From IMG/VR virus record IMGVR_UViG_3300037797_000117, positions 32,001 through 96,000 of that record: 64,000 nucleotides of DNA; one strand, written 5' to 3'. Of the stretch, positions 22,607 through 50,591 are shown piece after piece. A model generated the notes under the pieces. The model did no database searches. It saw nothing but the letters and a program-made list of their open reading frames with translations, and was not told where the DNA came from. Both the position numbers and the translations under genes were made by a program. Each line of letters opens with the position of its first letter. Position 1 is the first letter of the stretch. This DNA is from a virus.

Positions 22607-23584
22607 ATGTCATCTTCTGTTGAGGAGATCACCGTGTCCGTGTCCGCGCCCCCCGCCCCGCCCCGTGTCGACGTGTCCGGCTACAACGGCCCGACCATGC
22701 TGGACGACCAGATCCGGCTGGCCGAGGTCCTCGCGACTGCGACCCGGGTCATCCCGGTCGACTACCGCGACCAGCCCGGCGACCTGCTGGCCCTCATCTA
22801 CGAGGCGCAGGCCCTCAACATTCCGGTGATGACCGCCGTCCACAACCTCTACTTCGAGGACGACGGCTCGTACGGCATGTCGGCGCAGTTGATCGGGGCG
22901 TTGCTGCGCCGCGGCGGCGCCGACTGGTCCACCACCATCGAGCAGGGTAAGTCGTGCACCCTGGTGTTCACCTTCGCAGACGGCCGCACCGGTGGAGAGG
23001 CCAAGTACACCATCGGCGACGCGCTTCGGGCCGAGATCGCCAACACCACCAACTGGATCCGGTACCCCGACGACAACCTGTACGCCCGTGCGGTGTCGCA
23101 GGGCGCCCGCCGGTTCGCCCAAGACCTCACCGGTGGCCTGGCCTACGTCCCCGGCGAACGGACCACCGCACCCGCCGTGCAGGAAGAGGCCGTCGACCCG
23201 GACGTGGCCGAGTTCCTCGCCCAAGCTGACGGGGCTTCCACCACCCAGATCCAGGCCCTGACCGACACCGCCCTGGCGAAGAAGTCCAACGGCCTGGCCG
23301 CCAAGCCCGCCGGCGGCGGGAAGTCCGTCGAGGACCGGCTGCGGGAGCTGTGGCTGGCCGCCGCCGCCCGGGAGCTGGCCGCCGCCACCGCACCCGACGC
23401 CGACGCCGGCGAGCCGGCACCCGAGCCCGACCCGCAGCCGGCGGCGGTCCCCGGTGACGGGCACGCCCTCACCGCCCCCGCCGGCGAAGGAGACCTGCCG
23501 TGCCGCTGCCCGGCCGCTGCCGTCCTCGCCACCGGCGAACACGACCCGGCCGTGTGCCTCAACACCGCGGCGGTGACGCCGTGA
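22607..23584 (+). CDS. RecT/Red-beta-like single-strand annealing protein
   Basis: IPVDYRDQPGDLL, MSAQLIGALL, YTIGDALRA, NWIRYPDDNLYARAVSQGAR. Confidence 0.75.
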   Translation: MSSSVEEITVSVSAPPAPPRVDVSGYNGPTMLDDQIRLAEVLATATRVIPVDYRDQPGDLLALIYEAQALNIPVMTAVHNLYFEDDGSYGMSAQLIGALLRRGGADWSTTIEQGKSCTLVFTFADGRTGGEAKYTIGDALRAEIANTTNWIRYPDDNLYARAVSQGARRFAQDLTGGLAYVPGERTTAPAVQEEAVDPDVAEFLAQADGASTTQIQALTDTALAKKSNGLAAKPAGGGKSVEDRLRELWLAAAARELAAATAPDADAGEPAPEPDPQPAAVPGDGHALTAPAGEGDLPCRCPAAAVLATGEHDPAVCLNTAAVTP

Positions 23585-24063
23585 CCGCGCCGGTCGACCT
23601 GGCCTTCACCGTGCGGCTGCCCTACGCCGCCGCCATCCGCAACGGCACGAAGCCGATCGAGAACCGGGGGCGGCCGCCGCACGGCAAGTACCTCGGCGCC
23701 CGGGTCGCGTTGCACGCCGCCATGACCTGGTCGAAAACCGGCGCCGCCGACCCTCGGATCCGGACCTGGTGGTGGGGACCAGACCGCGCGGACCACCCCG
23801 TCGACCCCGTCGACTTCTGGCCACTCGTCGGCCGGCTCATCGCCGTGGTCACCTTCGCCGGGTGGCACCAGGCCGACCGGACCACACCGTTCGCGACATG
23901 CTGCCAGCCGTGGGGCGACCGCATGTACAACGGCTCCCTCGACACGGTGGCCTGGCACATCGAGCTCGCGGACATCACCCCGATCGACCCGCCAACCTCG
24001 CGGATCCACGGCCGCCTGTCGGTGCCGTTCACCCTTGCCGACCCGATTGCCGACCCGCGATGA
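23581..24063 (+). CDS. ASCH domain protein
   Basis: FTVRLPYAAAIRNGTKPIENR...VALHAA. Confidence 0.85.
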   Translation: MTAPVDLAFTVRLPYAAAIRNGTKPIENRGRPPHGKYLGARVALHAAMTWSKTGAADPRIRTWWWGPDRADHPVDPVDFWPLVGRLIAVVTFAGWHQADRTTPFATCCQPWGDRMYNGSLDTVAWHIELADITPIDPPTSRIHGRLSVPFTLADPIADPR

Positions 24064-25079
24064 GCGGCGTCGCCCTACGGACCGCGTCCGACCTGGTCGC
24101 CGAAACCCGGGCCATGGTGGGGAAGGCGTTCACCGCTGAAAACAGCCGCCGCCAGGCCGAACGCGACCCGACCCGGCTCACCATGTCCGGTCTCGGCGGC
24201 TGCACCCGCGCCGCCGCCTACTCGATCGCGGGTACCCCACCGTCCGACGTTGCCCTCCCGGAAGAGGCCCGCCAAGCCCTCCTCGGCACCTGGATCCACG
24301 AACATCTCCTGCCCGGCATGGCCGAATTCGCCGGCCCCGACGTCGTGGTGGAACAGCCGGTGAAACTCGCGGCCGCCGGCCTCGTCATCACCGGCACCTT
24401 GGACATGGCCGTCCACGACGTGGTGTGGGAGGTGAAGTCGGTCAAGGAGTGGCGTCTACACGGCGTGCGCCGCAAAGGGGTCTACGCCGAACACCGCGTC
24501 CAGGCCCGCGGCTACGGCCTGGCCTACCTCCAGGCCGGCAACCCGGTCAGGTGGATCGTGTTCATCTACATCGACCGCGCCACCGGCGAAGTCCACATCG
24601 AGGCCGAGCCGTTCACCAACGCCGCCGCCCTGTCCGTCATCGACCGCCTCGACCGGATCAAATTCCACGCCGGCGACGACCCCGACCGGGCACCCCGCGA
24701 GGGCCGCGGCCCCGGCGTGTCCCTCGCGTGCGACCGCTGCCCGTGGCTACGCCGCTGCTGGGGCGACGACGCAGTCCCCGGCAAGACCGGCCCGCAGCGC
24801 ACGATCGCCCGCACCGACGCCGGAATCGAGTACGCCCTCGACCTGTACGGCCGGGCCGCCGCCGCCGCGTCGCAGGCCGAACGCGACAAGACGTTCGCGA
24901 AGCTGATCCTGGCCGCCGCCCCCAACGGCCAGTACGGGTCGTGGATCTACGGCCGGGGCAGGGGAAGCGAAAAGTGGGACCACGACCAGATCGCCGCTGA
25001 CTACGCCGCGGCCGGCTTGGAGGTCCCCAAGGCACCCACCGCCGGGAAGATCATCGTCAAGCCGGCCCCCCAGAAATAG
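24060..25079 (+). CDS. Cas4/RecB-like PD-(D/E)XK exonuclease
   Basis: MSGLGGCTR, GTWIH, GTLD...WEVKS, Q.RGY, CDRCPWLRRCW. Confidence 0.85.
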   Translation: MSGVALRTASDLVAETRAMVGKAFTAENSRRQAERDPTRLTMSGLGGCTRAAAYSIAGTPPSDVALPEEARQALLGTWIHEHLLPGMAEFAGPDVVVEQPVKLAAAGLVITGTLDMAVHDVVWEVKSVKEWRLHGVRRKGVYAEHRVQARGYGLAYLQAGNPVRWIVFIYIDRATGEVHIEAEPFTNAAALSVIDRLDRIKFHAGDDPDRAPREGRGPGVSLACDRCPWLRRCWGDDAVPGKTGPQRTIARTDAGIEYALDLYGRAAAAASQAERDKTFAKLILAAAPNGQYGSWIYGRGRGSEKWDHDQIAADYAAAGLEVPKAPTAGKIIVKPAPQK

Positions 25080-29891: not shown

Positions 29892-30334
29892 CCGCCCCCG
29901 CTCTGACCGTCCCGGACCTGGCCGGGTTCGACACCTGCTACGGGGTGCGGATCTCCTGCATCGGCGACGACGGCGACATGGTCATGCTCGGCCATGTCGA
30001 CCGGCGCCGCGCGATCGCCGCCGTCCGTGCCTACCTGCGCAAGCTGTGGATGGTCCAGGCCGAAGTCGACGACCACCTGACCTGCCATCTCGGCCTGGAC
30101 CCGGGAGACGCCGAGCGGGCCGCCGAACGCGGCTTCGAGTTCGACGCCGGCATCCACCGGCATGCTGTCGTGGTCGAGCACTGCAACCGGTGGCCGGCCT
30201 GCCAGGAACCCGACGCCGACTGCGGCGAGCCAGACTCCTGTACCGGGCTCGGCGGCTACGACTGGTACCTCAAGGTCGACGACGTCACCCCCGACACCCC
30301 GGGCGCATTCCCCATCACCTACTGGTCCGAATAG
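29888..30334 (+). CDS. Hypothetical protein
   Basis: GTGA overlap; TPGAFPIT C-terminus. Confidence 0.6.
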   Translation: MTAPALTVPDLAGFDTCYGVRISCIGDDGDMVMLGHVDRRRAIAAVRAYLRKLWMVQAEVDDHLTCHLGLDPGDAERAAERGFEFDAGIHRHAVVVEHCNRWPACQEPDADCGEPDSCTGLGGYDWYLKVDDVTPDTPGAFPITYWSE

Positions 30335-30377
30335 CACCCCCGCACCACCCGTTTCCCCAACGGAAAGGCCCGAAACC

Positions 30378-30524
30378 ATGACCGACCCCAACCCGGCCGT
30401 CAGAGCGGTCGCCGACCTGATCGAGATGTCCATCGTCGACGCCGAAGATGCCGGCATGCCCCGCGACCAGTTCGACCGGCCGCTACGCGCGCACCTCGAC
30501 CGGCAGGAAGGCAGGAAGGCATGA
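30378..30524 (+). CDS. Small hypothetical protein
   Basis: RBS GAAAGG; ATGA overlap with the next gene. Confidence 0.5.
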   Translation: MTDPNPAVRAVADLIEMSIVDAEDAGMPRDQFDRPLRAHLDRQEGRKA

Positions 30525-30709
30525 ACCGCCACAACGACGAGTTCGACCCGGACGACGTGATCACGGTCGGCGGGCAGCCGGGCATCACCGTCGGCCAACT
30601 CGCCGAAATCGCGTTCGCCCAGGAGGACACCTACCGGCGGCAGATGCGCGACGCCGGGCTCGGGGTCCTACTGGCCGACGACGCAGTCGAAGGTGGAGAC
30701 CATGCCTGA
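30521..30709 (+). CDS. Small hypothetical protein
   Basis: Coupled operon gene. Confidence 0.55.
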   Translation: MNRHNDEFDPDDVITVGGQPGITVGQLAEIAFAQEDTYRRQMRDAGLGVLLADDAVEGGDHA

Positions 30710-31532
30710 ACCGGTCATGCTGACCCTGCGTACCCACCTGAACGACGAGGTCATGGTGCAGAAAGCCAAGGCCAAGCCGACGTTCAACCAGTCAACCGGC
30801 GACGGTGTGAGCTGGGCAGCCTGGACGTGGAACCCCATTACGGGCTGCCTGCACGGATGTAAATACTGCTACGCACGCGCGATTGCCGCCCGCTTCCCGA
30901 ACGCGTTCCCGGTCGGGTTCACGCCGATCTTCCGTGAGGACCGGCTGGACGCCCCGGCCAACACCAAGATCCCCGCCGCGCACCAAGGCGATCCGGATTG
31001 GGAGCGGGTGTTCGTCACGTCGATGGGCGACGGATACGGCCGGTGGGTTCCGCAGGAGTGGATCGACCGTATCCACGCGGCCGAGCGGGCCAGCCCGTGG
31101 TGGCAGTACATCCACCTGTCGAAGTTCCCCGACCGGTTCCCCGGGCTCGACTTCCCTCCGGGCGCGTGGGTCGGCACCAGCGTGGACGAGCAGAAGCGCG
31201 TCCGTATCGCCGAACGGGCCATGGCCGCCGTCACCGGCGTAAAGGTGAAGTGGCTGTCCCTGGAGCCGCTCAAGGAGCCTCTCGTCTTCGCCGATCTAAC
31301 GATGTTCGACTGGATTGTCATCGGTTCGCAGACCCGCACGATCCAACCCGGAGGTGTGGTCGAACCGGCGTTCGCGCCACCAGCCGAATGGGTACTGCGG
31401 ATTACCCACCAAGCCCGTGAAGCCAACATCCCCGTTCACTGGAAACCGAACCTCCGGTCCAACCCCGGTGTGGTCGGCAGTCTCGGTACCGAGTGGCACG
31501 ACCGGTACCCGAGCGGGGTGATCCGGCCATGA
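30702..31532 (+). CDS. DUF5131 (phage Gp37/Gp68, radical-SAM-like) protein
   Basis: TWNPITGCLHGCKYCYA, VFVTSMGD, WVGTSV, WLSLEPL, DWIVIG. Confidence 0.9.
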   Translation: MPEPVMLTLRTHLNDEVMVQKAKAKPTFNQSTGDGVSWAAWTWNPITGCLHGCKYCYARAIAARFPNAFPVGFTPIFREDRLDAPANTKIPAAHQGDPDWERVFVTSMGDGYGRWVPQEWIDRIHAAERASPWWQYIHLSKFPDRFPGLDFPPGAWVGTSVDEQKRVRIAERAMAAVTGVKVKWLSLEPLKEPLVFADLTMFDWIVIGSQTRTIQPGGVVEPAFAPPAEWVLRITHQAREANIPVHWKPNLRSNPGVVGSLGTEWHDRYPSGVIRP

Positions 31533-31972
31533 GCGCCGGCATGATCCCGATCAGCGCCGGGCACGTCCTGGTCATCACCGGCAGCAATGAGGACGGCTGC
31601 GACGAACGCCGCTACAGAATCGACCACTACGGCCCCGTCGACACGTGCGCCATGTGGGTGCCCTGCGACCGGGACCTTCCCTGCGCCGACGACGTTCAGT
31701 GGGCGCCGGACGGCAAGGTGTTCCACGGGGTCGAACACAGTTGGGGCGACGACGCGTGGGTCGTGCGCCCCAACGAGCCGACGTGTATCTACACCCGCCA
31801 GTTCGTCGCCGATGATCTCCCGGACGTGGCCGCCGACCTGGAGTACGACGGCGGCCCGCTGACGGCGGGCCGGTACCTGGTCGGACTGGTGTGGATGGGT
31901 GACGGCGAGTTCGACCTGAACATCCGGTCCCGCCTCGACGACACCGAACCGGCCCGGCCGGGGGTGGGGTGA
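31529..31972 (+). CDS. Hypothetical protein
   Basis: ATGA overlap. Confidence 0.55.
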   Translation: MSAGMIPISAGHVLVITGSNEDGCDERRYRIDHYGPVDTCAMWVPCDRDLPCADDVQWAPDGKVFHGVEHSWGDDAWVVRPNEPTCIYTRQFVADDLPDVAADLEYDGGPLTAGRYLVGLVWMGDGEFDLNIRSRLDDTEPARPGVG

Positions 31973-32352
31973 TGCCGGTCAGGGCCGCGAGCTGTTTCGA
32001 GGTGGTCTGCGACAACGCCGACACGGTGCCGTCGTGTGACGGAGGCTGGGACGACGGGCCGATCCACTTCCCCACCGAACAGGACGCCGTCGACTACGCC
32101 CGCACGGCCGGGTTCGTCATCGTCGGAACTACGGTCCTGTGCGCCGAGTGTTCCGCCACCCGTGACTGCGAACGCCTCGGCCACCAGTGGGACACCTGGA
32201 CCGACGGCGAGCACCTCGGTGTCACCTTCAAGAAGCGGCACTGTGACCACTGCGGGATCGGCGACTTCAGCGAAGAATTCCAGCAGGCGGTCCTGCTGGC
32301 CGAGGTCCGGGACATCGTCAACAATGCCGACCAGGCCGGCCACGATGCCTAG
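31969..32352 (+). CDS. Cys-rich hypothetical protein
   Basis: CxxC pairs; coupled gene. Confidence 0.6.
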   Translation: MMPVRAASCFEVVCDNADTVPSCDGGWDDGPIHFPTEQDAVDYARTAGFVIVGTTVLCAECSATRDCERLGHQWDTWTDGEHLGVTFKKRHCDHCGIGDFSEEFQQAVLLAEVRDIVNNADQAGHDA

Positions 32353-32731
32353 CCGGGTCCGGGTCGACGGGGACCTGTTCCACGGCCGGGTCCCCGACGG
32401 CGCGATCTACGTGGGGCGGGCCGCGCCCGGTTTGCGGACCTCGCCGTGGGCCAACCCGTTCAAGGTCGGCAGGCCGGTCGGGCCGACCGTACGGCTCGCC
32501 GGCGGTGTCTGGACGGTGGCCCCCTCGATCGCGGGAAGTACCCCCGCCGGCACAGCCGAGGTGATCACCTGGTACTCGTGGGCCATCACCACGTTCGACC
32601 TGACCGGGCGGGTGGCGTCCGAGCTCGCCGGCCGGGACCTGGCCTGCTGGTGCCGCGAAACGCAGCCCTGCCACGGCGACGTCCTGATGACATTCGCCAA
32701 CCCGGGATGGGTGCCGCCGTGGATGCCCTGA
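32345..32731 (+). CDS. DUF4326 family protein
   Basis: IYVGR...SPWANPFKVG...ELAGRDLACWC...PCHGDVL. Confidence 0.9.
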   Translation: MPSRVRVDGDLFHGRVPDGAIYVGRAAPGLRTSPWANPFKVGRPVGPTVRLAGGVWTVAPSIAGSTPAGTAEVITWYSWAITTFDLTGRVASELAGRDLACWCRETQPCHGDVLMTFANPGWVPPWMP

Positions 32732-32754
32732 ACAACCTCAGGCTCCCGTACGAC

Positions 32755-32795
32755 GACGAAGGCGCCGACCGCATGATGCGGTCGGCGCCTTCGTC
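32755..32795. terminator. Bidirectional terminator hairpin
   Basis: GACGAAGGCGCCGACCGCAT-g-ATGCGGTCGGCGCCTTCGTC. Confidence 0.8.
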
Positions 32796-32804
32796 TGTCT
32801 GGAC

Positions 32805-33185
32805 CTACCGGTCGGCTTCCCGGGCCTTGCGGTCCTCCGCGATCGCCAACGCCTCCTCGGCCATGATCAGCGCCTCTTCGGGCGTTGCCATGACCCAGTC
32901 GACGTTGGGGCAGGCCGCCTCCCAAGCGTTGACCCGGTCCAGGGCGGCGTCGCGGAACGTGTCGTAGTCGAAGACGCAGGCCGGCGGGCTGGACGTGTCC
33001 GCGTCGGCGCCTTCCCACACCACGATCCGCCAGTGGTGGTAGGCGACGTTCTGGTTGTTGGCGGCCCATTCGGCTACGTCCCGCGCGGTGCCCGGGTCGT
33101 CGACCGTTTCGGAGGGGCCGGCGGCCTGCCAGACGGTGGCGTTGTGGTCGCCAGACACTTCAAGCTGAACGGTGTAGGCCGTCAT
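32805..33185 (-). CDS. Hypothetical protein ending in a copy of a TraB segment
   Basis: C-terminal PNVDWVMATPEEALIMAEEALAIAEDRK matches TraB PGVDWVASTPEEALIMAEVALAIAKDRK. Confidence 0.7.
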   Translation of the reverse strand: MTAYTVQLEVSGDHNATVWQAAGPSETVDDPGTARDVAEWAANNQNVAYHHWRIVVWEGADADTSSPPACVFDYDTFRDAALDRVNAWEAACPNVDWVMATPEEALIMAEEALAIAEDRKAREADR

Positions 33186-33424
33186 GAGGGGTTCCTCTCG
33201 GTGGAGGCCGGGCCGGCGGGCGGGAACAGCGGTGGGCGGGCGTCGTCGCACGCTACGTCGGCCGAGTGGTGGCCGCTGCACCAGTTGCGTGTGCCGGCCG
33301 GCAGGAAATCCGTCACCGGGGCGTACGGGCGACCTTCGCGGCCCTCGGTGTGTGCCTGCACCAGCAGGTCGTGTTGACGGGTGGCGGCATCCCACTGCCG
33401 GGCGGTGCGGGAACGCTTCGTCAC
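33182..33424 (-). CDS. Hypothetical protein
   Basis: Coupled in the leftward operon. Confidence 0.5.
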   Translation of the reverse strand: MTKRSRTARQWDAATRQHDLLVQAHTEGREGRPYAPVTDFLPAGTRNWCSGHHSADVACDDARPPLFPPAGPASTERNPS

Positions 33425-33425
33425 G

Positions 33426-34142
33426 TTAGGACTGCCTCTGCGCGGAGGCCCGGCCGGCGGCGTACGCCTGGCGGGCGATCTCGCGGTAGGTGTCGGTGCG
33501 GTGGTGACCTTCGCGGGCGTCGTCGAGGGAAACGTCCAGGCCGTCCTCGTCGATGGCGTGCTGGGTGTACGCGTCGAGCAGGGCGGCCGGGATTTCACTG
33601 GCGAGGTCGGGGGTGCTCGGCCTGTACACGTCGATGCGGGCCAGCATGTGGTACTTCAGGTGAAGCGCCGCCCCGGCGACGACACCGGGGGTGCAGCGGC
33701 AACCGCCGCCGTCGCCGCAGGCGTGGATGTTGTACGCGGCACCTTGGACGGCGCTGAAGAACTGTCCATCGACCAGCAGGCTGCCGTCGCGGGCACGGAC
33801 ATCAGCGATACAGAGAGTTTCGAGGACGTCGATCGCGATGCGTAGGTCGACTTCGGCGATCTTCGCGTTGAGCCGGTCGTACAGGTTGTCGATCTCCGAG
33901 ACAATGCCGCGCTCGATCCACCGGTCGTCGCCGAGGGCTGCCTCGTCGGCGACGAGCTTGGCCAGGACTGGGTCGGTGGCGTTGGCGAGGTCCCTGTCGA
34001 CGAAGAGGCGGGTGCGGCCGGGGAAGGACTGGTCGAAGCCTTCGTCGTAGTCAGGGAAGATCAGCATGGTGTACCGGTCGGTGTGGACCTTGTAGGTGCC
34101 GTTGAGGTCGGGGCCGGTCGTGGCGATGAGCGTGGCGGTCAT
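33426..34142 (-). CDS. Hypothetical protein
   Basis: RBS GGGAG; HACGDGGGCRCTPG motif. Confidence 0.65.
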   Translation of the reverse strand: MTATLIATTGPDLNGTYKVHTDRYTMLIFPDYDEGFDQSFPGRTRLFVDRDLANATDPVLAKLVADEAALGDDRWIERGIVSEIDNLYDRLNAKIAEVDLRIAIDVLETLCIADVRARDGSLLVDGQFFSAVQGAAYNIHACGDGGGCRCTPGVVAGAALHLKYHMLARIDVYRPSTPDLASEIPAALLDAYTQHAIDEDGLDVSLDDAREGHHRTDTYREIARQAYAAGRASAQRQS

Positions 34143-34177
34143 CCGGGTCTCCCTGGGGCTGTCGAGTTCGTCACCTC

Positions 34178-34207
34178 ATGGTACGCCGTTCCCCGGGTAC
34201 GGAGCAA
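34178..34207 (-). promoter_or_regulatory. Regulon promoter/operator copy 7 (leftward)
   Basis: Reverse strand TTGCTC-cgtacccggggaacggcg-TACCAT. Confidence 0.8.
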
Positions 34208-34240
34208 CACGACGGTTTGGCGCCATCTGAACATCTAGCG

Positions 34241-34269
34241 TTGTGCCGTACCCCGGAAAGGGGTACCGT
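34241..34269 (+). promoter_or_regulatory. Regulon promoter/operator copy 8
   Basis: TTGTGC-cgtaccccggaaagggg-TACCGT. Confidence 0.8.
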
Positions 34270-34279
34270 CGAGGGAACA

Positions 34280-34470
34280 GCCAGGATGGTCGGAACCCCC
34301 GAGATCCCGCAAGGCGGACAGGCCGACCCAACACCACCGGATCGGCCTGTCCTGGTCTCCAACAACCCCCCGCGGATCGTCTGCCGCCCGAGCCCGCTAC
34401 CGACAGGCTCGCGCGAAACGCGAAACGACGCGCTCAGGTGAGGAGACGTTTCGACCCCGTCCATCCTGGC
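34280..34470 (+). ncRNA. Candidate multibranch structured RNA or leader
   Basis: Closing stem GCCAGGATGG/CCATCCTGGC plus several internal helices, directly after promoter 8. Confidence 0.55.
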
Positions 34471-34499
34471 CCGACCGCCACTAGACCTGAAGGGTTCCC

Positions 34500-34991
34500 A
34501 TGACTGATGACGTATCCACCCATTCCGGCACCCTCGACCGCGACCGCCTCGTCACCGCGTACCGGGAGCTGCGCCGCATCGTCGACGTAGACCCGCTTAT
34601 CCCGGCGTTCCCTTCCTCCGTCCAGGTGTTCCAGGTCCTCTGCGACACACCCGGCTGGGACGAGCAGACCGCCCGCATGTACAGCATTGCCGCCCGATGC
34701 TGTTACCAGGACGGGGTCGACCCGGTCACCGGCCGGCCGCTGGCCGGGGAGGCAGCTATCCACCCGGTCCGGGTTGCTGAGGCCCGCAACCTGGTGTACT
34801 CGGTGCTTGCCGGCCTGGACCCGGCGGCGGCGTCCGCCGCGGCGGCGCGGGTGGTGAGCCTGCTCGCCGACGCCGGGTGGCGTCCCAGCGAAGTGCCGAC
34901 CGACCCGGCTGCGCACGCGACCGCGGTGGCGCGCGTTGTGAGCATGCTCCGCGGCGAGCCTCCGATCGAGGGGAATCAGCCGGCCCGTTAG
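34500..34991 (+). CDS. Hypothetical protein
   Basis: ORF downstream of the structured leader. Confidence 0.6.
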   Translation: MTDDVSTHSGTLDRDRLVTAYRELRRIVDVDPLIPAFPSSVQVFQVLCDTPGWDEQTARMYSIAARCCYQDGVDPVTGRPLAGEAAIHPVRVAEARNLVYSVLAGLDPAAASAAAARVVSLLADAGWRPSEVPTDPAAHATAVARVVSMLRGEPPIEGNQPAR

Positions 34992-35061
34992 GAGATCCCC
35001 GTGCCGGCGGGGCCGGTGCCTAGCTGTTCTGCACGGACCACATCTACGAGGAGGAAACAGA

Positions 35062-35784
35062 ATGATCAACCGTGTCCGCGGCGCTGTCGCCGTGGCGAAA
35101 GGCCGATGGCAGTGGCGCAAGGCTCGCAGCCTCGCCGACCTGGCCAACCTGCGAGCCGACCAGATCGCCCGCAACCTGCCCGGCGTGGGACGCCGGCCAC
35201 GGACTGCCTACCTGAACGGGGACGGCACGGTGCGGCTCGGCCCACCGGCGACCGCTGTCGAGCAGTCCACGAAGACCATGTACTCGGCGCTGGTCGCGCT
35301 CGGCCGGACCGGTGTGGTCGTCCACGACTGGCACCCGGGAACGTTCACCGAGGCCACCGGCGAGCACCCGGCCATGGCGACCAGGGCCTGCGTGGCCGGG
35401 TTCGCCGACGACGAAACGAAGGACTGGCTCGACAGCCTGCTGTACTACGCCGGCAAGGAGCCGGGCGCCACCGGCTACGAACTCGGATCCGTCCTCGACC
35501 TGTGGGCCCCCGGTCAAGAAGATTACGAACGGTGGGACGGGGTCGACGCCCACCGCTCCCGCGGTCACTGGGTCGAGCGCATCGACGACACCCCGACGGT
35601 CCGCATCGGCGACCAGATGACCGCCCGCGAGGTGTACCGGGCGTTCCCCACCCGCGGGCGTGTGCAGCGGGAGTTGCGGAAGGCGTGGCTGATCACGATC
35701 GTCGCACCGACGTGGGGCGACAACACGATGTTCGCCGACCTGCTCCCGCTGTTGGCCGGGGCCCGGCGCCCGGCTGAGGTCTAG
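35062..35784 (+). CDS. DUF6919-like protein (paralog of 39606-40283)
   Basis: WRKARSLADL, RACVAGFAD, AWLITIVAPTWGDN. Confidence 0.6.
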   Translation: MINRVRGAVAVAKGRWQWRKARSLADLANLRADQIARNLPGVGRRPRTAYLNGDGTVRLGPPATAVEQSTKTMYSALVALGRTGVVVHDWHPGTFTEATGEHPAMATRACVAGFADDETKDWLDSLLYYAGKEPGATGYELGSVLDLWAPGQEDYERWDGVDAHRSRGHWVERIDDTPTVRIGDQMTAREVYRAFPTRGRVQRELRKAWLITIVAPTWGDNTMFADLLPLLAGARRPAEV

Positions 35785-35862
35785 CGCCCGGTTTCGGTCC
35801 AGGAAGCGCCGGGCCCGACCCCCTGGGGACGTTGGGCCCGGCGCTTTCTTATGGTCCACATG

Positions 35863-35892
35863 TTGCGCCGTTCCCGGGGTACGCGTTACGGT
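35863..35892 (+). promoter_or_regulatory. Regulon promoter/operator copy 9
   Basis: TTGCGC-cgttcccggggtacgcgt-TACGGT, preceded by a terminator hairpin at about 35803-35847. Confidence 0.8.
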
Positions 35893-35930
35893 TGCTGTAT
35901 TCCCCGAACGGCCAATGCCAGGAGTTCACC

Positions 35931-36338
35931 ATGACCTCCCAGACGAAGACCCCCCGACGGGTGGGGTTCCTCCACGACCCCACCGGCGAACACCACGACG
36001 GCATGCCCACCTACCCGTGGGGCCTTGAACCCGGCGAAGACGGAGCCCCACCGGCCAACCTCGCCACCCGCCGCCAACTCGCCAAGATGGGCCTACGCCC
36101 CAACGGCCAGGAACACGTCGCCGAAATCCGCAAACTCGCCTACGGCTGGCTCGTAGCCAAGCTCTACCCGATCGCCGGGGCCGCACCGAAACGGCCCATG
36201 ACCGACGCCATGTGGCGGGCCGTCAACACCGCCGCCCGCTCCCGGTACCGGTGCAACACCTGCCCCCGCACCGACCTGGACTACATCCCGAAGCAAACCT
36301 CCCCGGTCTGGGGACGCTGCCACCACTGCTACCCCTGA
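35931..36338 (+). CDS. RRQRL-motif zinc-binding protein (typical of actinomycete plasmids/AICEs)
   Basis: PTYPW...LATRRQLAKMGLRPNGQ...AKLY...PKRPMT...RCNTC...RCHHC. Confidence 0.8.
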   Translation: MTSQTKTPRRVGFLHDPTGEHHDGMPTYPWGLEPGEDGAPPANLATRRQLAKMGLRPNGQEHVAEIRKLAYGWLVAKLYPIAGAAPKRPMTDAMWRAVNTAARSRYRCNTCPRTDLDYIPKQTSPVWGRCHHCYP

Positions 36339-41695: not shown

Positions 41696-42385
41696 ATGAC
41701 CACCAGCACCGCTACCCAGCAGGACAGCACCGCCGGAAACTTCACCTACTACATCGCCAGGACCATCGTTCTCGGCTTCGCCATCGGCTGTCTCTACTTC
41801 TCCTTCGACCACACCATCCACCTGGCCCACATGCTCGGCGCCACCGGCACCCAGGCCTACACCGCCCCCGCCTTCGTCGACGGCTTCATGTTGCTTGGCC
41901 GCCTCGGCATGAGCGCCAAGTTCGACGCCGCCACCAACAAGATCGGCCGCCGGATGATGGTCGTCGGCGCCCTGATCTCCCTCGCCGCGAACATCGCCGC
42001 CGGCCAGACCCTCGGCGGCCGCATTCTCGGCGCGGCCGTGGTGATCGGCTTCCTCGTGACCGAGTGGTACGCCGGCAAGCTCAAGCCCGCTCCCGCCCCG
42101 GCCCCGACCGTCACCCCCGACGAGCAGGCCGCGATCGACCTGGCCGCCAAGCGTTCCGCCGCCGCCCGCAAGGCCGCCGAAACCCGCAAGGCGAACCAGG
42201 CCGCCAAGCCCACCCGCAAGCCCCGCACCCGCAAGCCCGCCGCCGCCAAGACCCACCCGGTCGCCGCGATCCAGGCCCTGACCCCCCAGCAGATCAACGA
42301 CGCCCCGGTCTCCCCCGCCCCGTGGATGGGCCCGAGCCTGGTCATCGCGAAGACCACCGCTGACATCCGGAACCTGACCAACTAA
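41696..42385 (+). CDS. DUF2637/Spd-like 4-TM plasmid spread protein with Lys/Ala tail
   Basis: SFDH..HLA..LGA...PAFVDG...GALISLAANIAA; basic KAAETRK tail. Confidence 0.7.
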   Translation: MTTSTATQQDSTAGNFTYYIARTIVLGFAIGCLYFSFDHTIHLAHMLGATGTQAYTAPAFVDGFMLLGRLGMSAKFDAATNKIGRRMMVVGALISLAANIAAGQTLGGRILGAAVVIGFLVTEWYAGKLKPAPAPAPTVTPDEQAAIDLAAKRSAAARKAAETRKANQAAKPTRKPRTRKPAAAKTHPVAAIQALTPQQINDAPVSPAPWMGPSLVIAKTTADIRNLTN

Positions 42386-43724: not shown

Positions 43725-45368
43725 ATGGAGCGGAACACCGAACACGGAGCGCCGAAGAGTGCCGAATCGGCCCCCGGCGGTACCGCAGTACCCGCGGTAC
43801 CGGTGACCCCCGGTACCGCGGTACCGGTACCGCCCGCGGCCCGGCCGGTACCGGCACACCGCGCCCCGGTACCGACGACCGACACCGGCGGTACCAGTAC
43901 CGACAGCGGTACCGGTACCGCCGGCCGGTACCGCTGGTACCACCGGCTCGGCCGCCGGTACCGCCACACCGGTACCGGTACTGCCACCGCCGGTACCAGC
44001 CTCGCGGTACCGGCCGACGGGGCAGTACAGGTCTTCGGTACCGGTACCGGCGACCTGGTACCGGCCGCCGGGTACCGGTACAACCCGGTCGGTACCGAAG
44101 CAACGATCCGGGCCCACCTGCGCGACCTGCCGGTGCCGGCGGCCGGTACCGCCCGTCGGCACCGCAAGGCGGCGACCGGCACCACCACCGAGCCGGTGAC
44201 CTTCCTCGGCCGGATCTTCAAAGCGATCAGCACCATCTTCGAGATCGCCCCCCTGGCCGCGCCCCTGTTCGCCTCCGGCTGGTTCACCTACCTCGTCGTC
44301 ACCGACGAGTACGGCCTGAGCCAGCCGTGGCCGATCGCGGTGACCATGGTGCTCGGCCTCGAAGGTGTCGTCTGGACCCTCGCCAAGCTGTACGAGCAGC
44401 GGCTGGTCGCCGGCCACTCCACCATCGCCGACCGGCTCGGAATCCTGTTCGTCGTCAGCGCCATCGGCAGCCTCATCTACTGGCACTCCATGGTCGAGGC
44501 CAAGGCCCGCACCGCCGAGGCCAGGGCCGCCGCCGTGCTGGCCGGCATCGACCCGGACTTCGTCGTCGCCGCCAAGGCCGACTGGCGCGGTGCCGCCGTC
44601 GCCGCGTCCATGAGCGCGCTCGGCGTGTTCGTGTACGGGCGTAGGGCCAGGTGGAACCGCCGTGTCGAGCTGGAAGCCGAAGGCCGCGTCGACATGCAGG
44701 CCCTGCGGATCGGTCTCTGGCAGTGGATCGTCTCCCCCTGGGAGTCGACCTGGTCGTTCCGCCACGGCATGAAGTACCGGATCAAGCGCCCCACGGACGC
44801 GGTACGGGACTGGCGGCTGTGGAAGGAGATGGGCAAGCCCAAGCTGTGGCCGCCGGCCATGACCGCCGGTACCACCGGCACCAGCACCGACGAGACGGTA
44901 CCGGTACCGGCGTGGATGCTCGCCGAGCTACTCGGCAACGCCGCCGGTACCGGTACCGGCGGGGACCTGGTCGGTACCGGGTACCCGGTACCGACCTCGC
45001 CCGGCCCGGCCGGTACCGGTACCGGCGGTACGAGCTACGTACCGGTACCGCCGGCGAGCGTTGGCGGTACCGCGACCCGTACCGCCTCCGGCCCGGCCGG
45101 TACCGGAGCGCGCGGTCCCGGCGGTACCGGTACCGGTACCGCCGGGGACTCGGTGACGATCAGCCAGTACCGGCAGCGCAACGCCCACCGTCTCGACAAG
45201 ATCCGTAAGGTGCTCGACGGTACCGACGGCCGGCCGGATTGGCGGCTCGCCCCGGAAGCCGACCTGACCCTGTCCGTCATCACGGCCGCCGGCGGGTTCA
45301 GCAACCGCACCGACGCCGCCCAGTGCAAGTCGGTCCTCCTGGCCGACCGGCAGCGGGAAGGCGGATAA
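43725..45368 (+). CDS. Spd-like 4-TM membrane protein with GGTACC-encoded low-complexity arms and possible C-terminal HTH
   Basis: Central TM helices; GT/VP/RY repeats on both sides; first gene of the transfer operon. Confidence 0.7.
   Translation: MERNTEHGAPKSAESAPGGTAVPAVPVTPGTAVPVPPAARPVPAHRAPVPTTDTGGTSTDSGTGTAGRYRWYHRLGRRYRHTGTGTATAGTSLAVPADGAVQVFGTGTGDLVPAAGYRYNPVGTEATIRAHLRDLPVPAAGTARRHRKAATGTTTEPVTFLGRIFKAISTIFEIAPLAAPLFASGWFTYLVVTDEYGLSQPWPIAVTMVLGLEGVVWTLAKLYEQRLVAGHSTIADRLGILFVVSAIGSLIYWHSMVEAKARTAEARAAAVLAGIDPDFVVAAKADWRGAAVAASMSALGVFVYGRRARWNRRVELEAEGRVDMQALRIGLWQWIVSPWESTWSFRHGMKYRIKRPTDAVRDWRLWKEMGKPKLWPPAMTAGTTGTSTDETVPVPAWMLAELLGNAAGTGTGGDLVGTGYPVPTSPGPAGTGTGGTSYVPVPPASVGGTATRTASGPAGTGARGPGGTGTGTAGDSVTISQYRQRNAHRLDKIRKVLDGTDGRPDWRLAPEADLTLSVITAAGGFSNRTDAAQCKSVLLADRQREGG
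43779..44150. repeat. GGTACC array 1 (about 22 copies)
   Basis: Hand count of the palindromic hexamer. Confidence 0.9.
44868..45224. repeat. GGTACC array 2 (about 17 copies)
   Basis: Hand count of the palindromic hexamer. Confidence 0.9.
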
Positions 45369-47946: not shown

Positions 47947-48016
47947 CTGTCGGTGGCCGGGCCCACCCCCGGCCACCGACCCCCGCACCACCGAGACGTT
48001 GAGGGAGGCGAGACGG

Positions 48017-50233
48017 ATGCCGATGCAGTACAACGCCACCATGTCCGGCGGCACGGCATGGGGGGCGGTCAACGGGTTCCTTACCGCCTTCGCCGTGGCC
48101 CTGCTCGGGTCCAACTGGAATCGCCTCGACCGCAACTGGGGGTGGTGGCACGACCGGTTCGGCCCGTTCCCGATCTGGTTCCCGATGGCTGTCGCCGCCG
48201 CCGCCGCGGTCGCGGCGGTCCTGGTCGGCAACCACCGCGGCACCACCGCTTCCAACATCCGCTTCCGCGCCGGGTGCTGGCTCGGCGCGGGCGTGTGGAC
48301 CACAGTCACCATCCACTACGGCTGGTCCGTGATCGGGTTCGTCATCCTTACCGTCGCCGCGGTTCTTGCGGGAACCCTCGCCCCCGCGTTCGGAACCTTC
48401 ACTCCGCCTCCGCAGCCGTCCATGGACAGCGGAAGCGAGATCACCAGACTCACCCGTTTGATCAACAAGTTTGCCAACATCAAGCCCGAAGACCAGCCGA
48501 CCTTGCAGAAGGTCCGCGACTGGGAACCGAAGGACGCCGGCGTCACCTACAAGGCAGTCGGCGCTCCCGGCACCGACTTCAGTTGGCGCACGCTGCGGGA
48601 GATCCAGATCAGGTTGGCGGCCGGGCTCGGCCTGCCGGAAGGGTGCCCGGTCCAGTCAGAGCCGGCCGGCACCACCCAGAACGAAGCCCTTGTGATGGTT
48701 TCCACCCGGAACTACCTGGCCGAAGACGTCTGGTACCCGATGGACATGACGCCGCTAACCGTCACGGAAGACTTCCCCGTCGGCCGGTTCCTTGACTCGG
48801 CACCGACCGACGTCGAGTTGCGCCAGGCCGCCGGTGTCGTGGTAGGCCAGCGCGGCGGCGGTAAGACCATGCTGCTTCACAACATCACCGCCAGCTTGAT
48901 TCGCATGCCGGACGTCGTGGTGTGGCACATCGACCTCAACGGTGGTGGCCTGTCCGCGCCGTGGACCATGCCGGTAGCGATGGGCGAGGTGCAGTACCCC
49001 GGCGTCGACTGGGTCGCGTCAACGCCCGAAGAGGCGCTGATCATGGCTGAGGTGGCGCTGGCGATCGCGAAGGACCGCAAGCGACGCTACGCCGGCGAGC
49101 TGGTACGCAGCGACGACGACGTGCTCCCCGTCCGACCCGGCCTACCGAAGATCCTCATCATTGTCGACGAGAGTGCCGAGGTCACCGGCGAAGACGCCAA
49201 GAAGAAGGCCCAGGCGGTGTCGGCGGCGTTGCAGGAGGTGCAGCGGATCGGCCGCGCCATGTGCGTCGACGTCTTCTTCTCCGTCCTGCGTGGCACCGGC
49301 GATCTGCTGCCGGCCGGAATCAAGAAGCAGGCCGTCCTGTCGTTCTGCACCCGGGTGCGCGACGAGTCGGAACTGGCGTTCGTGTTCGACTGGAAGTCGG
49401 GCCTGGACCACGAGGCGCTCAAGGAGCCCGGCCAGATGTACATGCAGCGCGGCTCCGGCGCGGTCAAGATGTTCAAGGGGTTCCGATTGAAGCCCAGCAT
49501 GATGATCGCCATCGTGCATGCCATGCAGCATGTCCGGGCCCAGGCCCAACTCGACGGCCCCGCGTTGCGGGTCGCCGGTGACGCCTACCTCCAGCGGTGG
49601 CAGCGACCCGACGCAGTTGCCTACCTGGCGGGGCTCCGCGGCGAAGACGGCCCCGACCCCGGCGACGGTGGGGGCGGCGGCTACGGCGGCCCACCCGACC
49701 CGGACCCGGACCCGTATTCGTCCGGTGGCGACCCCGGGGACGACGCGCTCGCCGAGTTCGACGCCGCCATCCGCGAGATCGAGGCGGGGGAGAAGCCGGA
49801 ATCGACCCGGCCGGCGGCACCGGTGCGGGAGGCAGCACCGGCAGCACCGGCCGGGTCGATTCCCGACGACGTGGTCCAGCGGATGCTGAACCAGATCGAG
49901 GCGCTCCCCACGACGGAGGCGCCGCTGGTAGACCCGGCCCCGGCGGCGACGACGCTGGCCGGCCCGGGCCTGCCGGGCGGCCCGGATCAGGCGTCGACCC
50001 GTGGCCCCGTCCCCCGGCGGGCGTTCATCGAGCAGCTACTCGAGCGGGCCGGTCGGGACGGGATGCGGACGGGGGACATTGTGCGGCTTGTGATGGCGTC
50101 GGGGCTGAAGGTTCGGCGCGAGGCCACGATCAAGGAGGACCTACAGGCTCTCCTTGACGCGGGGGTCATCACGCGGAACAACCCGGACGGCGGCGAGACG
50201 CACGGCATGTACTGGCTGAGCCGGCTGGTCTGA
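48017..50233 (+). CDS. traB: TraB-like FtsK/SpoIIIE conjugative DNA translocase
   Basis: N-terminal TM helices; Walker A GQRGGGKT; VWHIDLNGG; Walker B ILIIVDESAE; R.GRA motif; C-terminal wHTH. Confidence 0.85.
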   Translation: MPMQYNATMSGGTAWGAVNGFLTAFAVALLGSNWNRLDRNWGWWHDRFGPFPIWFPMAVAAAAAVAAVLVGNHRGTTASNIRFRAGCWLGAGVWTTVTIHYGWSVIGFVILTVAAVLAGTLAPAFGTFTPPPQPSMDSGSEITRLTRLINKFANIKPEDQPTLQKVRDWEPKDAGVTYKAVGAPGTDFSWRTLREIQIRLAAGLGLPEGCPVQSEPAGTTQNEALVMVSTRNYLAEDVWYPMDMTPLTVTEDFPVGRFLDSAPTDVELRQAAGVVVGQRGGGKTMLLHNITASLIRMPDVVVWHIDLNGGGLSAPWTMPVAMGEVQYPGVDWVASTPEEALIMAEVALAIAKDRKRRYAGELVRSDDDVLPVRPGLPKILIIVDESAEVTGEDAKKKAQAVSAALQEVQRIGRAMCVDVFFSVLRGTGDLLPAGIKKQAVLSFCTRVRDESELAFVFDWKSGLDHEALKEPGQMYMQRGSGAVKMFKGFRLKPSMMIAIVHAMQHVRAQAQLDGPALRVAGDAYLQRWQRPDAVAYLAGLRGEDGPDPGDGGGGGYGGPPDPDPDPYSSGGDPGDDALAEFDAAIREIEAGEKPESTRPAAPVREAAPAAPAGSIPDDVVQRMLNQIEALPTTEAPLVDPAPAATTLAGPGLPGGPDQASTRGPVPRRAFIEQLLERAGRDGMRTGDIVRLVMASGLKVRREATIKEDLQALLDAGVITRNNPDGGETHGMYWLSRLV

Positions 50234-50294: not shown

Positions 50295-50591
50295 TCAGGC
50301 GGCGTAACGCGACGGGTAGACGTCGACGTCGTCGTCGTAGTCGTGGTAGTCCGTCGGGGGTGTGTCTTCGCCGTCGGGCCGGTACCAGCCGTTGGCGGCG
50401 TTACGGGCCTGTGCACCGGTGGTGGTCGGCCAGTCGCGGGCGTCGTTGACGCCGTCTTCGACGAGGGCGAAGACCTGGTCTTCGTCGATGCCGACGGACA
50501 GAGCGGTCGCGGCAGCGGCACGGAGCATGCGCGCCGCGCGGTCCATGTCTGTCTGCCAGGCGTCCTTCATGTTCTCCACGATCCCATACAC
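50295..50591 (-). CDS. Hypothetical protein
   Basis: Acidic small ORF convergent on traB. Confidence 0.55.
   Translation of the reverse strand: MYGIVENMKDAWQTDMDRAARMLRAAAATALSVGIDEDQVFALVEDGVNDARDWPTTTGAQARNAANGWYRPDGEDTPPTDYHDYDDDVDVYPSRYAA

What the first reader, a model, noticed from the sequence alone, without database searches (positions are those of the whole stretch)
32826..32910. 85-bp fragment of traB captured in frame at the end of a small gene 16 kb away
Seen: the reverse complement of 32826-32910 matches traB 48997-49081 at 76/85 nt by hand alignment, including a 28-nt perfect run. The 126-aa ORF 32805-33185 ends in PNVDWVMATPEEALIMAEEALAIAEDRK, against TraB PGVDWVASTPEEALIMAEVALAIAKDRK, which lies between Walker A and Walker B. 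Mismatches are not adenine-specific, so this is not a DGR. Inference: either a new chimeric gene made by short-homology recombination (RecT-like and exonuclease genes are present), or a TraB-helix mimic that blocks oligomer assembly during lytic growth or excludes rival elements. It also suggests traB has long resided in this lineage.
Basis: partly seen in the sequence, partly recalled or inferred. Interest (0 to 1): 0.72.

Follow-up and report, generated by a model that had tools for sequence, protein, structure and literature searches.

The report
FtsK gene fragment inserted in small gene
A large soil-type phage copied about 81-85 bases of its own FtsK/TraB-like DNA-pump gene, in frame, into the tail of an unrelated small gene; relatives lack the copy and it drifts freely, so it is most likely a recent tolerated recombination scar and not a proven regulator.

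Summary
The reverse complement of 32826-32910 matches 48997-49081 at 76/85 nt (self-BLASTN E 3.7e-25) and is the strongest dispersed repeat in the whole 166-kb phage genome. It is read in the same frame in both genes.

- **Donor:** an FtsK/SpoIIIE-type motor gene. The copied piece is one core strand plus helix between Walker A and Walker B, conserved in about 80 homologues, so the direction is ftsK-like gene to small gene.
- **Recipient:** a 126-aa protein. Residues 1-73 form a widespread, unannotated domain with variable tails.
- **Relatives lack the insert:** none of 83 relatives has it, including a 60%-identical copy in a related ~167-kb phage that also carries the FtsK-like gene.
- **Position:** the piece lies inside the tail, and the ancestral last residues and stop codon are kept.
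- **Age:** codon identity (21/23 against 13.4 expected) shows a recent DNA copy.
- **Selection:** dN/dS is about 1.1, and all five replacements fall in the small-gene copy, three at positions conserved in the FtsK-like family.

Best reading: a lineage-specific, microhomology-mediated templated insertion that is tolerated and near neutral. An FtsK-binding role is not excluded; the co-fold gave weak support only. The scan also noted this same stretch from an overlapping window.

The parts
32805..33185 (-). Small chimeric gene, 126 aa (P0001)
   Evidence: ORF with GC3 0.91 and an upstream GAGAGGAA ribosome-binding site. No Pfam, PHROG or NCBIfam match. AF2 model has mean pLDDT 92.
32967..33185 (-). 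N-terminal alpha/beta domain, residues 1-73, of a widespread unannotated family
   Evidence: 83 representative proteins match this part, mostly query residues 1 to about 72 and at most about 117. No relative matches the insert as FtsK-like sequence. No Pfam family fits. Five strands plus one helix at high pLDDT.
32913..32966 (-). Helix, residues 74-91, shared with the closest relatives
   Evidence: Aligned with P0002, P0083, P0084, P0144 and P0156 up to the Trp-Glu motif. Helix 74-91 in the model.
32826..32910 (-). FtsK-derived in-frame patch (residues 93-120); about 81 nt are inserted and the right end overlaps a microhomology
   Evidence: 76/85 nt identical to 48997-49081, E 3.7e-25. Absent from all relatives. 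21 of 23 identical-residue codons are identical against 13.4 expected, P 2.5e-4.
32805..32825 (-). Retained ancestral last six codons plus the stop codon
   Evidence: Aligns with the C-terminal ends of P0002, P0144 and P0156.
32755..32795 (.). 19-bp-stem hairpin between the small gene and the convergent DUF4326 gene; likely a bidirectional terminator
   Evidence: Inverted repeat. RNA fold -45.8 kcal/mol, z -7.1. No U-tract, so the simple terminator scan did not list it.
33426..34142 (-). Upstream 238-aa gene on the same strand, unknown function; probably co-transcribed with the small gene
   Evidence: GC3 0.89. No Pfam or PHROG hit.
34178..34207 (-). Promoter-like site (TTGCTC, 18-nt spacer, TACCAT) carrying the element-wide palindromic operator
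   Evidence: Pattern search and sequence. The operator copy at 34187 has one mismatch to the consensus.
48017..50233 (+). Donor gene: FtsK/SpoIIIE (TraB-like) motor, 738 aa (P0003); an alternative start at 47999 gives 744 aa
   Evidence: phrog_31069 at 2.9e-72. Family profile hits YukB/EssC, TcpA and FtsK chains. AF2 model best matches the FtsK motor 2iut at E 2.8e-16 and TcpA.
48997..49081 (+). Donor segment: strand 332-334 plus helix 337-357 of the RecA-like core, between Walker A and Walker B
   Evidence: Conserved motif in about 80 homologues. pLDDT 97-98 and secondary structure.
22634..23584 (+). RecT-like single-strand annealing protein (candidate agent of the event)
   Evidence: phrog_561 at 3.5e-11.
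24060..25079 (+). Cas4-domain exonuclease (likely partner of the annealing protein)
   Evidence: phrog_1706 at 1.3e-24 and phrog_1990 at 2.2e-13.

Best explanation
About 81 nt, within an 85-nt homologous stretch, were copied from the phage's own FtsK/SpoIIIE-type motor gene into the variable C-terminal tail of a small accessory gene 16 kb away on the other strand. The event is recent and specific to this lineage.

The insert is in the sense orientation and in the donor's reading frame, and its length is a multiple of three. The recipient therefore keeps its last six codons and its stop. The product is an unannotated ~73-residue N-terminal domain, its native helix, a loop, and a new 24-residue helix.

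The inferred mechanism is a microhomology-mediated templated insertion. This could be a template switch during replication, or annealing by the phage's RecT-like protein and exonuclease at very short homologies.

Since the event the copy has evolved without FtsK-type constraint. The chimeric tail is therefore most likely a tolerated, near-neutral scar and not a working mimic of the motor.

Shown: the copy itself, its direction, its absence from relatives, its recent age, and the relaxed constraint. Inferred: the molecular mechanism and the neutrality.
For: 1. Repeat: 76/85 nt, E 3.7e-25. It is the strongest dispersed repeat in the genome.
2. Direction: the segment is a conserved core motif in about 80 FtsK-like homologues, and the phage's own protein is the best match to the tail.
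3. Lineage-specific: the two closest relatives of the small protein lack the insert (P0002 62% identical, P0083 60%). So do 80 more distant ones. P0083 lies on the same 166,985-bp contig as the FtsK homologue P0018.
4. Recent DNA copy: 21 of 23 identical-residue codons are identical against 13.4 expected from codon usage (P 2.5e-4); pS is 0.10.
5. Relaxed constraint: 7 non-synonymous and 2 synonymous differences, dN/dS 1.09. All five residue changes are derived in the small-gene copy, and three hit positions conserved in the FtsK-like family.
6. Junctions: the sequence GACCGC(A/G)AG is shared by the donor, the recipient and the relative L003 at the right junction. The tail after the insert aligns with relatives' tails.
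7. The recipient family tolerates varied C-terminal extensions.
8. RecT-like and Cas4-type exonuclease genes are present. Phage recombinases of this superfamily recombine short, diverged sequences efficiently (PMC3945230).
Against: - The ORF is intact and the insert keeps the donor frame. The a priori chance of sense orientation plus donor frame is only about 1 in 6.
- The inserted helix remains amphipathic and is modelled with confidence.
- A co-fold of the small protein with the motor domain scored 0.53 against 0.00 for the best of 3 controls. This is 'weak support'. The mark was reached by 58 of 80 solved complexes and 2 of 110 mismatched pairs, but at 0.60 or under by only 7 of those 80 and by both mismatches that passed. 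The runs agree in at least 78% of contacts, and partner pLDDT is at least 78.
- dN/dS rests on only 9 differences. It cannot separate neutrality from adaptive change.
- The left junction shows no clear microhomology.
- No relative closer than about 60% identity is available to date the event.
Confidence: 0.6

Rival explanations
1. The chimeric tail is functional. The small protein uses the captured strand-plus-helix to bind the FtsK/TraB-like motor, or a partner of that helix. It would then act as a self-derived regulator, decoy or dominant-negative cap on motor assembly.
For: - Co-fold score 0.53 against 0.00 for the best of 3 controls. This is 'weak support': the mark was reached by 58 of 80 solved complexes and 2 of 110 mismatched pairs, but at 0.60 or under by only 7 of those 80 and by both mismatches that passed. 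Runs agree in at least 78% of contacts; partner pLDDT is at least 78.
- The ORF is intact, sits behind a regulon-type promoter and is followed by a strong hairpin.
- The N-terminal domain family is modular. It occurs fused to Phd/YefM antitoxin domains and to other tails.
- The domain's fold weakly resembles small phage-encoded inhibitor proteins: AcrIF9 (Z 5.1, rmsd 2.4, 62 aligned) and Dmd (Z 4.5). Both are below the level that means more than a common arrangement.
Against: - The insert is absent from every relative, including a related phage that has both genes.
- dN/dS is about 1.1, with a Val-to-Glu and a Lys-to-Glu change at positions conserved in the motor family.
- In the motor the segment is a buried core element of the RecA-like fold. 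No evidence places it at a subunit interface.
- The two co-folded chains share a 28-residue near-identical stretch. This may bias the model, and the unrelated-protein controls do not test for that.
Confidence: 0.2
2. The 85-bp inverted repeat matters as DNA. It is a substrate for recombination that inverts the 16-kb segment between the two copies. Because the repeat is in frame in both genes, inversion would swap the 3' parts of the two genes. This could be an accidental liability or a switch.
For: - The copies are inverted, 89% identical and include a 28-nt perfect run.
- The phage encodes a RecT-like protein and an exonuclease. Such systems act on short, diverged repeats (PMC3945230).
Against: - No site-specific recombinase was identified next to either copy among the neighbouring genes scanned.
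- An inversion would truncate the motor before Walker B.
- Only one arrangement is present in the assembly.
- The insert's absence from relatives argues against a conserved switch.
Confidence: 0.05
3. The similarity arises at the protein level (shared ancestry or convergence of a helix motif), or the copy went from the small gene into the motor gene.
For: High GC3 makes identical peptides look alike at the DNA level. The 107-nt, 82% match between the motor gene and its degenerate paralogue is explained in this way (dS 0.54, omega 0.06).
Against: - For the small gene, codon identity far exceeds the codon-usage expectation (P 2.5e-4).
- The flanks are unrelated.
- The motif is ancestral in about 80 motor homologues and absent from 82 relatives of the small protein.
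Confidence: 0.03
4. RNA-level role: read-through from the convergent + strand genes past the hairpin would give an RNA antisense to the motor mRNA over 85 nt.
For: The + strand of 32826-32910 is complementary to the motor mRNA, with a 28-nt perfect run. The DUF4326 operon converges on this spot.
Against: A very stable hairpin (-45.8 kcal/mol) lies between the + strand genes and the patch. The small gene's own mRNA carries the sense copy. There is no conservation in relatives.
Confidence: 0.03

Closest known systems
Phage mosaicism by relaxed or illegitimate recombination driven by Rad52-like (Red-beta, RecT, Erf) recombinases (De Paepe et al. 2014, PMC3945230)
   Same: Short patches of about 100 bp are moved into genes. 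The phage encodes a RecT-like annealing protein and an exonuclease. Short, diverged homology is enough.
   Different: Here the donor and recipient are in the same genome and are unrelated genes. The result is an insertion, not an exchange between homologous modules. Only one junction shows microhomology (8 of 9 nt).
Templated insertions by microhomology-mediated template switching (FoSTeS/MMBIR-type events; from general knowledge, not tested here)
   Same: A short stretch is copied from a distant site in inverted genomic orientation. The donor stays intact. There is microhomology at a junction.
   Different: The mechanism cannot be shown from one sequence. The in-frame, sense outcome that yields an intact chimeric ORF is a special case.
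Diversity-generating retroelements
   Same: Two near-identical short repeats in one phage genome, one of them at the 3' end of a gene.
   Different: There is no reverse transcriptase in the genome. Mismatches are not adenine-specific. The donor is itself a coding core motif.
Self-derived inhibitory small proteins (microProtein or dominant-negative fragment logic; from general knowledge)
   Same: If functional, this is a small protein carrying a piece of a larger oligomeric protein encoded in the same genome.
   Different: The captured piece is a core fold element, not a known interaction domain. It shows no purifying selection. Binding has only weak in-silico support.
FtsK/SpoIIIE-family DNA translocases, including actinomycete TraB, clostridial TcpA and actinophage 'FtsK-like DNA translocases'
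   Same: The donor gene has Walker A and Walker B. Its profile and fold match FtsK, TcpA and EssC. Homologues occur in Streptomyces phages Galactica, Hiyaa and Keanu, in Thermobifida phage P1312 and in phage-plasmid ZL12.
   Different: The single sequence does not reach Pfam PF01580. TraB-specific DNA recognition and a conjugative role were not tested.

Membership tests
FtsK/SpoIIIE-type translocase (donor gene) | Walker A P-loop with the catalytic Lys | tested here: met
   GGGKT at residues about 279-284 of P0003; G280, G282 and K283 are invariant in 54 homologues.
FtsK/SpoIIIE-type translocase (donor gene) | Walker B (hydrophobic strand followed by Asp-Glu) | tested here: met
   IVDES on strand 378-384; D384 and E385 are invariant.
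FtsK/SpoIIIE-type translocase (donor gene) | Sequence or fold similarity to solved FtsK-family motors | tested here: met
   The family profile hits YukB/EssC at 4.4e-11, TcpA at 9e-11 and FtsK at 1.3e-7. Foldseek gives 2iut at E 2.8e-16 with TM (target) 0.63. The single-sequence Pfam scan gave only AAA_22 below its cut-off.
Actinomycete TraB (conjugative translocase) | C-terminal winged helix binding 8-bp clt repeats; plasmid transfer function | not tested
   A C-terminal helical/strand module (664-734) is modelled.
Diversity-generating retroelement | Reverse transcriptase gene near the repeats | tested here: not met
   No PF00078 match in the 166-kb genome; the controls matched.
Diversity-generating retroelement | Mismatches confined to template adenines | tested here: not met
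   Only 1 of the 9 mismatches is at an A of the motor copy and 4 of 9 at an A of the small-gene copy.
Templated microhomology-mediated insertion | Intact donor elsewhere in the same genome; insert absent from orthologues | tested here: met
Templated microhomology-mediated insertion | Microhomology at both junctions | tested here: inconclusive
   The right junction shares 8 of 9 nt among donor, recipient and L003. The ancestral sequence at the left junction cannot be reconstructed from relatives at about 60% identity.
Dominant-negative or mimic fragment of the motor | Captured piece kept under selection for the donor's residues | tested here: not met
   dN/dS is 1.09, with three replacements at positions conserved in the FtsK-like family. 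The sample is small (9 differences).
Dominant-negative or mimic fragment of the motor | Physical binding to the motor | tested here: inconclusive
   Co-fold 0.53 against best control 0.00, 'weak support'. At 0.60 or under the mark was reached by only 7 of 80 solved complexes and by both of the 2 mismatched pairs (of 110) that passed. Runs agree in at least 78% of contacts; partner pLDDT is at least 78.
Small-protein N-terminal domain family (unnamed) | About 70-residue alpha/beta domain with conserved Trp/Glu/Trp-Arg/Val-Trp/Gly positions | tested here: met
   83 representative hits. W57 is invariant, and T5, W19, E26, A38, W52, R53, V56 and G59 are nearly invariant. No Pfam model exists.

The most novel reading that the evidence does not exclude
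The phage has made a regulator of its own FtsK/TraB-like DNA pump. It grafted a 28-residue strand-plus-helix of the pump onto a modular small inhibitor-like domain. The result would be a self-derived decoy or cap that binds the motor or the helix's partner and tunes DNA translocation during infection. It would be a 'microProtein' born by templated insertion and caught soon after its origin.
Probability: 0.15. Interest if true: 0.65.

Novelty: new member of a known kind. Interest (0 to 1): 0.35.

Why it matters
This is a clean, datable case of a chimeric phage gene formed by an intragenomic, in-frame templated insertion. The donor is intact, the relatives are empty, a junction microhomology is visible, and a RecT/exonuclease system is on board.

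Such events are assumed to feed phage gene innovation but are rarely seen this fresh. If the tail proves to bind the FtsK-like motor, it would show how a phage can derive a regulator from its own target protein.

As it stands it is a good illustration and not a new principle. The analysis also exposes an unannotated ~70-residue domain family with many fusion partners, and a degenerate paralogue of the motor.

Tried and rejected
- **Family scans of the small protein:** Pfam, PHROGs and NCBIfam gave no family. A Pfam scan of 54 family members gave only fusion-partner hits such as Phd/YefM.
- **Sequence profile against the PDB:** nothing below E 0.06.
- **Fold searches of the small-protein model:** Foldseek against PDB and BFVD gave no match at E <= 0.001. 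VIA-align wide gave a best Z of 5.1 (AcrIF9), too weak to name a fold.
- **Related loci in IMG/VR:** searches with the small protein, the motor protein and the family alignment gave no usable loci.
- **Nucleotide and protein searches:** megablast of 30000-36000 against isolated phages gave no match. tblastn of the small protein against phages gave no match.
- **DNA of related contigs:** DNA of three related ~165-kb contigs could not be fetched. The record behind L004 is not searchable. The position of the small gene relative to the motor gene in relatives is therefore unknown.
- **tblastx of L003 against the genome:** only the small gene is truly shared; the rest was high-GC noise.
- **A second 107-nt match** links the motor gene and a site 19.6 kb before the window. 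It first looked like a second gene-conversion patch. Codon analysis (dS 0.54, omega 0.06) shows it is old protein-level conservation in a degenerate paralogue, not recent DNA exchange.
- **Consensus promoter and terminator scan of 32300-34600:** found nothing. The regulon-type promoter and the U-less hairpin were found by pattern search and folding.
- **Assembly artefact:** rejected, because the copies differ at 9 positions and each lies in an intact ORF.

Full report
**Setting.** The window is bases 32001-96000 of a 166,387-bp virus record with direct terminal repeats; its GC content is 68.7%. It encodes:
- a tape-measure-sized gene and a lysin with a peptidoglycan-binding domain;
- DUF932, DUF5131 and DUF4326 proteins;
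- a RecT-like annealing protein and a Cas4-type exonuclease;
- DnaB, and a 738-aa FtsK/SpoIIIE-like protein.

- The reverse complement of 32826-32910 equals 48997-49081 at 76 of 85 positions without gaps, including a 28-nt perfect run, and identity vanishes on both sides.
- Self-BLASTN gives E 3.7e-25 in the window and 2.5e-24 in the whole genome, where it is the best dispersed repeat.
- The ORF 32805-33185 on the minus strand (126 aa) has GC3 0.91 and a GAGAGGAA site before its ATG.
- The patch is read in the same frame in both genes, with 23 of 28 residues identical.

**The donor.**
- The 738-aa protein (P0003) matches phrog_31069, 'FtsK/SpoIIIE-like', at 2.9e-72.
- A profile of 54 homologues hits YukB/EssC, the conjugation coupling protein TcpA, and FtsK among solved structures.
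- Its AF2 model (pLDDT 85) is most similar to the FtsK motor domain (2iut, E 2.8e-16) and to TcpA.
- Walker A and Walker B are intact and invariant in the family.
- The copied segment is residues 328-355. It comprises strand 332-334 and helix 337-357 of the RecA-like core, between the P-loop helix and the Walker B strand, at pLDDT 97-98.
- This motif is conserved in about 80 homologues from large phage contigs and from Micromonospora, Nonomuraea, Streptosporangium and related genomes.
- The direction of transfer is therefore motor gene to small gene. No database homologue fits the small gene's tail better than the resident motor.
- Four large related contigs (136-167 kb) keep the order FtsK-like gene, small reverse gene, DnaB. 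The motor gene is therefore an old resident of this phage lineage.
- Isolated actinophages carry more distant homologues annotated as FtsK-like translocases.

**The recipient.**
- An exhaustive HMMER search found 83 representative proteins. Nearly all align only to residues 1 to about 72 of the small protein, and a few extend to about residue 90.
- The only match to residues 88-124 is the phage's own motor.
- The N-terminal part is thus a widespread domain of about 70 residues. It has no Pfam model. It occurs alone or fused to varied extensions, including N-terminal Phd/YefM antitoxin domains.
- The AF2 model (pLDDT 92) shows a five-stranded alpha/beta domain (1-73), a helix (74-91), a loop (92-101) and a second helix (102-125).
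- Fold searches gave nothing significant. The best was AcrIF9 at Z 5.1.

**It is an insertion, and it is lineage-specific.**
- The closest relatives are P0002 (98 aa, 62% identical) and P0083 (99 aa, 60%). They align through the first helix to a Trp-Glu motif and then end within 10-14 residues.
- In a subfamily alignment, the last residues of the window protein after the patch line up with the ends of P0002, P0144 and P0156. MAFFT opens a gap of about 27 columns in all relatives exactly over the patch.
- At the DNA level, the right edge of the patch is GACCGCAAG. L003 has GACCGCGAG at the matching spot of its tail, and the donor has GACCGCAAG. This is an 8-of-9-nt microhomology.
- The left junction cannot be resolved.
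- P0083 lies on the same 166,985-bp contig as the motor homologue P0018. A related phage with both genes therefore has an uninterrupted small gene.

**Age and selection.**
- Of the 23 codons that encode identical residues, 21 are identical. The window's codon usage predicts 13.4 (P 2.5e-4), so this is a recent copy of DNA and not protein-level resemblance.
- Nei-Gojobori counts give 2 synonymous and 7 non-synonymous differences: pS 0.10, pN 0.11, dN/dS 1.09.
- Polarised by the motor family, all five residue changes lie in the small-gene copy. Three of them hit positions that are conserved or nearly invariant in the family:
  - Ala to Met after the Trp-Val;
  - Val to Glu in the helix;
  - Lys to Glu before Asp-Arg-Lys.
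- The motor copy shows no residue change polarised to it by the family alignment. The captured piece therefore no longer evolves as an FtsK element.
- With nine differences, neutral drift cannot be told apart from adaptive change, for instance removal of an exposed hydrophobic residue.

**Expression context.**
- The small gene follows a 238-aa gene of unknown function on the minus strand.
- A promoter-like site (TTGCTC, spacer, TACCAT) at 34207-34178 carries the palindromic operator seen at many intergenic sites of the element.
- Ten bases after the stop codon lies a 19-bp-stem hairpin (-45.8 kcal/mol, z -7.1). It separates the gene from a convergent DUF4326 gene at 32345-32731.

**Mechanism.**
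- The phage encodes a RecT-like protein and a Cas4-type exonuclease.
- Phage recombinases of this superfamily recombine short and diverged sequences far better than RecA does (PMC3945230).
- A templated insertion, by annealing or by template switching at microhomology, fits the anatomy. This step is inference.
- A DGR is excluded: there is no reverse transcriptase and no adenine bias.

**Test of the mimic idea.**
- A co-fold of the motor domain (residues 225-560, with its alignment) and the small protein (with its alignment) scored 0.53 in three runs, against 0.00 for the best of three controls.
- The tool calls this weak support. The mark was reached by 58 of 80 solved complexes and 2 of 110 mismatched pairs, but at 0.60 or under by only 7 of those 80 and by both mismatches that passed.
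- The runs agree in at least 78% of contacts, and partner pLDDT is at least 78.
- The two chains share a near-identical 28-residue stretch, which the unrelated-protein controls do not control for.
- I weigh this result together with three facts: the insert is absent from relatives, constraint is relaxed, and the donor element is buried in the motor core. On that basis I put a functional motor-binding role at about 0.2.

**Side result.**
- A second match to the motor gene (window 48856-48962) lies at genome 12254-12357, outside the window. It led to a ~387-aa paralogue of the motor domain with degenerate Walker A and Walker B, 33% identical overall.
- Its 107-nt, 82% match has dS 0.54 and omega 0.06. 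It reflects old, strongly conserved protein sequence, not recent exchange.

**Verdict.** The repeat is real and is an intragenomic, in-frame, lineage-specific insertion that created a chimeric small protein. It is most likely a tolerated scar. A regulatory link to the motor is possible but unproven.

Noticed in passing
Same genome, 19.5-20.7 kb before the window start (genome 11349-12512, minus strand): A paralogue of the FtsK-like motor domain, about 387 aa and 33% identical to P0003 residues 246-552. Walker A has lost its Lys and Walker B its Asp-Glu. It keeps a 22-residue stretch after the P-loop helix almost identical to the resident motor's version (dS 0.54, omega 0.06). It may be a catalytically dead partner subunit.
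   Followed up: partly
window 32967-33185 (-) and proteins P0083-P0163: The N-terminal ~70 residues of the small protein define a widespread domain family with no Pfam model (83 representative clusters). It occurs alone, behind Phd/YefM antitoxin domains, or in front of varied C-terminal extensions. Several extensions end in a shared Leu-Tyr-Gln-Ile-Arg motif. Its function is unknown.
   Followed up: partly
window 32345-32731 (+): A DUF4326 gene (4.6e-15) converges on the small gene. A naive GC3-based call had put a false minus-strand ORF (32407-32700) here.
   Followed up: yes
window 17305, 18311, 20094, 21476, 34187, 35869, 37682, 38306, 41614, 50679, 55934, 61151: Copies of the palindrome CGTACCC-N-GGGTACG with 0-2 mismatches lie at intergenic sites, inside promoter-like spacers. 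This agrees with the element-wide operator regulon noted by first readers.
   Followed up: partly
window 50295-50591 (-) and contigs: A small reverse-strand gene (78-130 aa) sits between the FtsK-like gene and dnaB in this phage and in four large related contigs. The arrangement is conserved and its function is unknown.
   Followed up: no
window 43803-45368 (+): Self-BLAST shows dense internal direct and inverted repeats within this 521-aa ORF. It has no Pfam or NCBIfam hit.
   Followed up: no
window 41696-42385 (+): A weak DUF2637 match (E 1e-3, below the cut-off). This family is often found beside TraB-type genes in actinomycete conjugative elements. Streptomyces phage-plasmid ZL12 also carries a distant homologue of the motor.
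   Followed up: no
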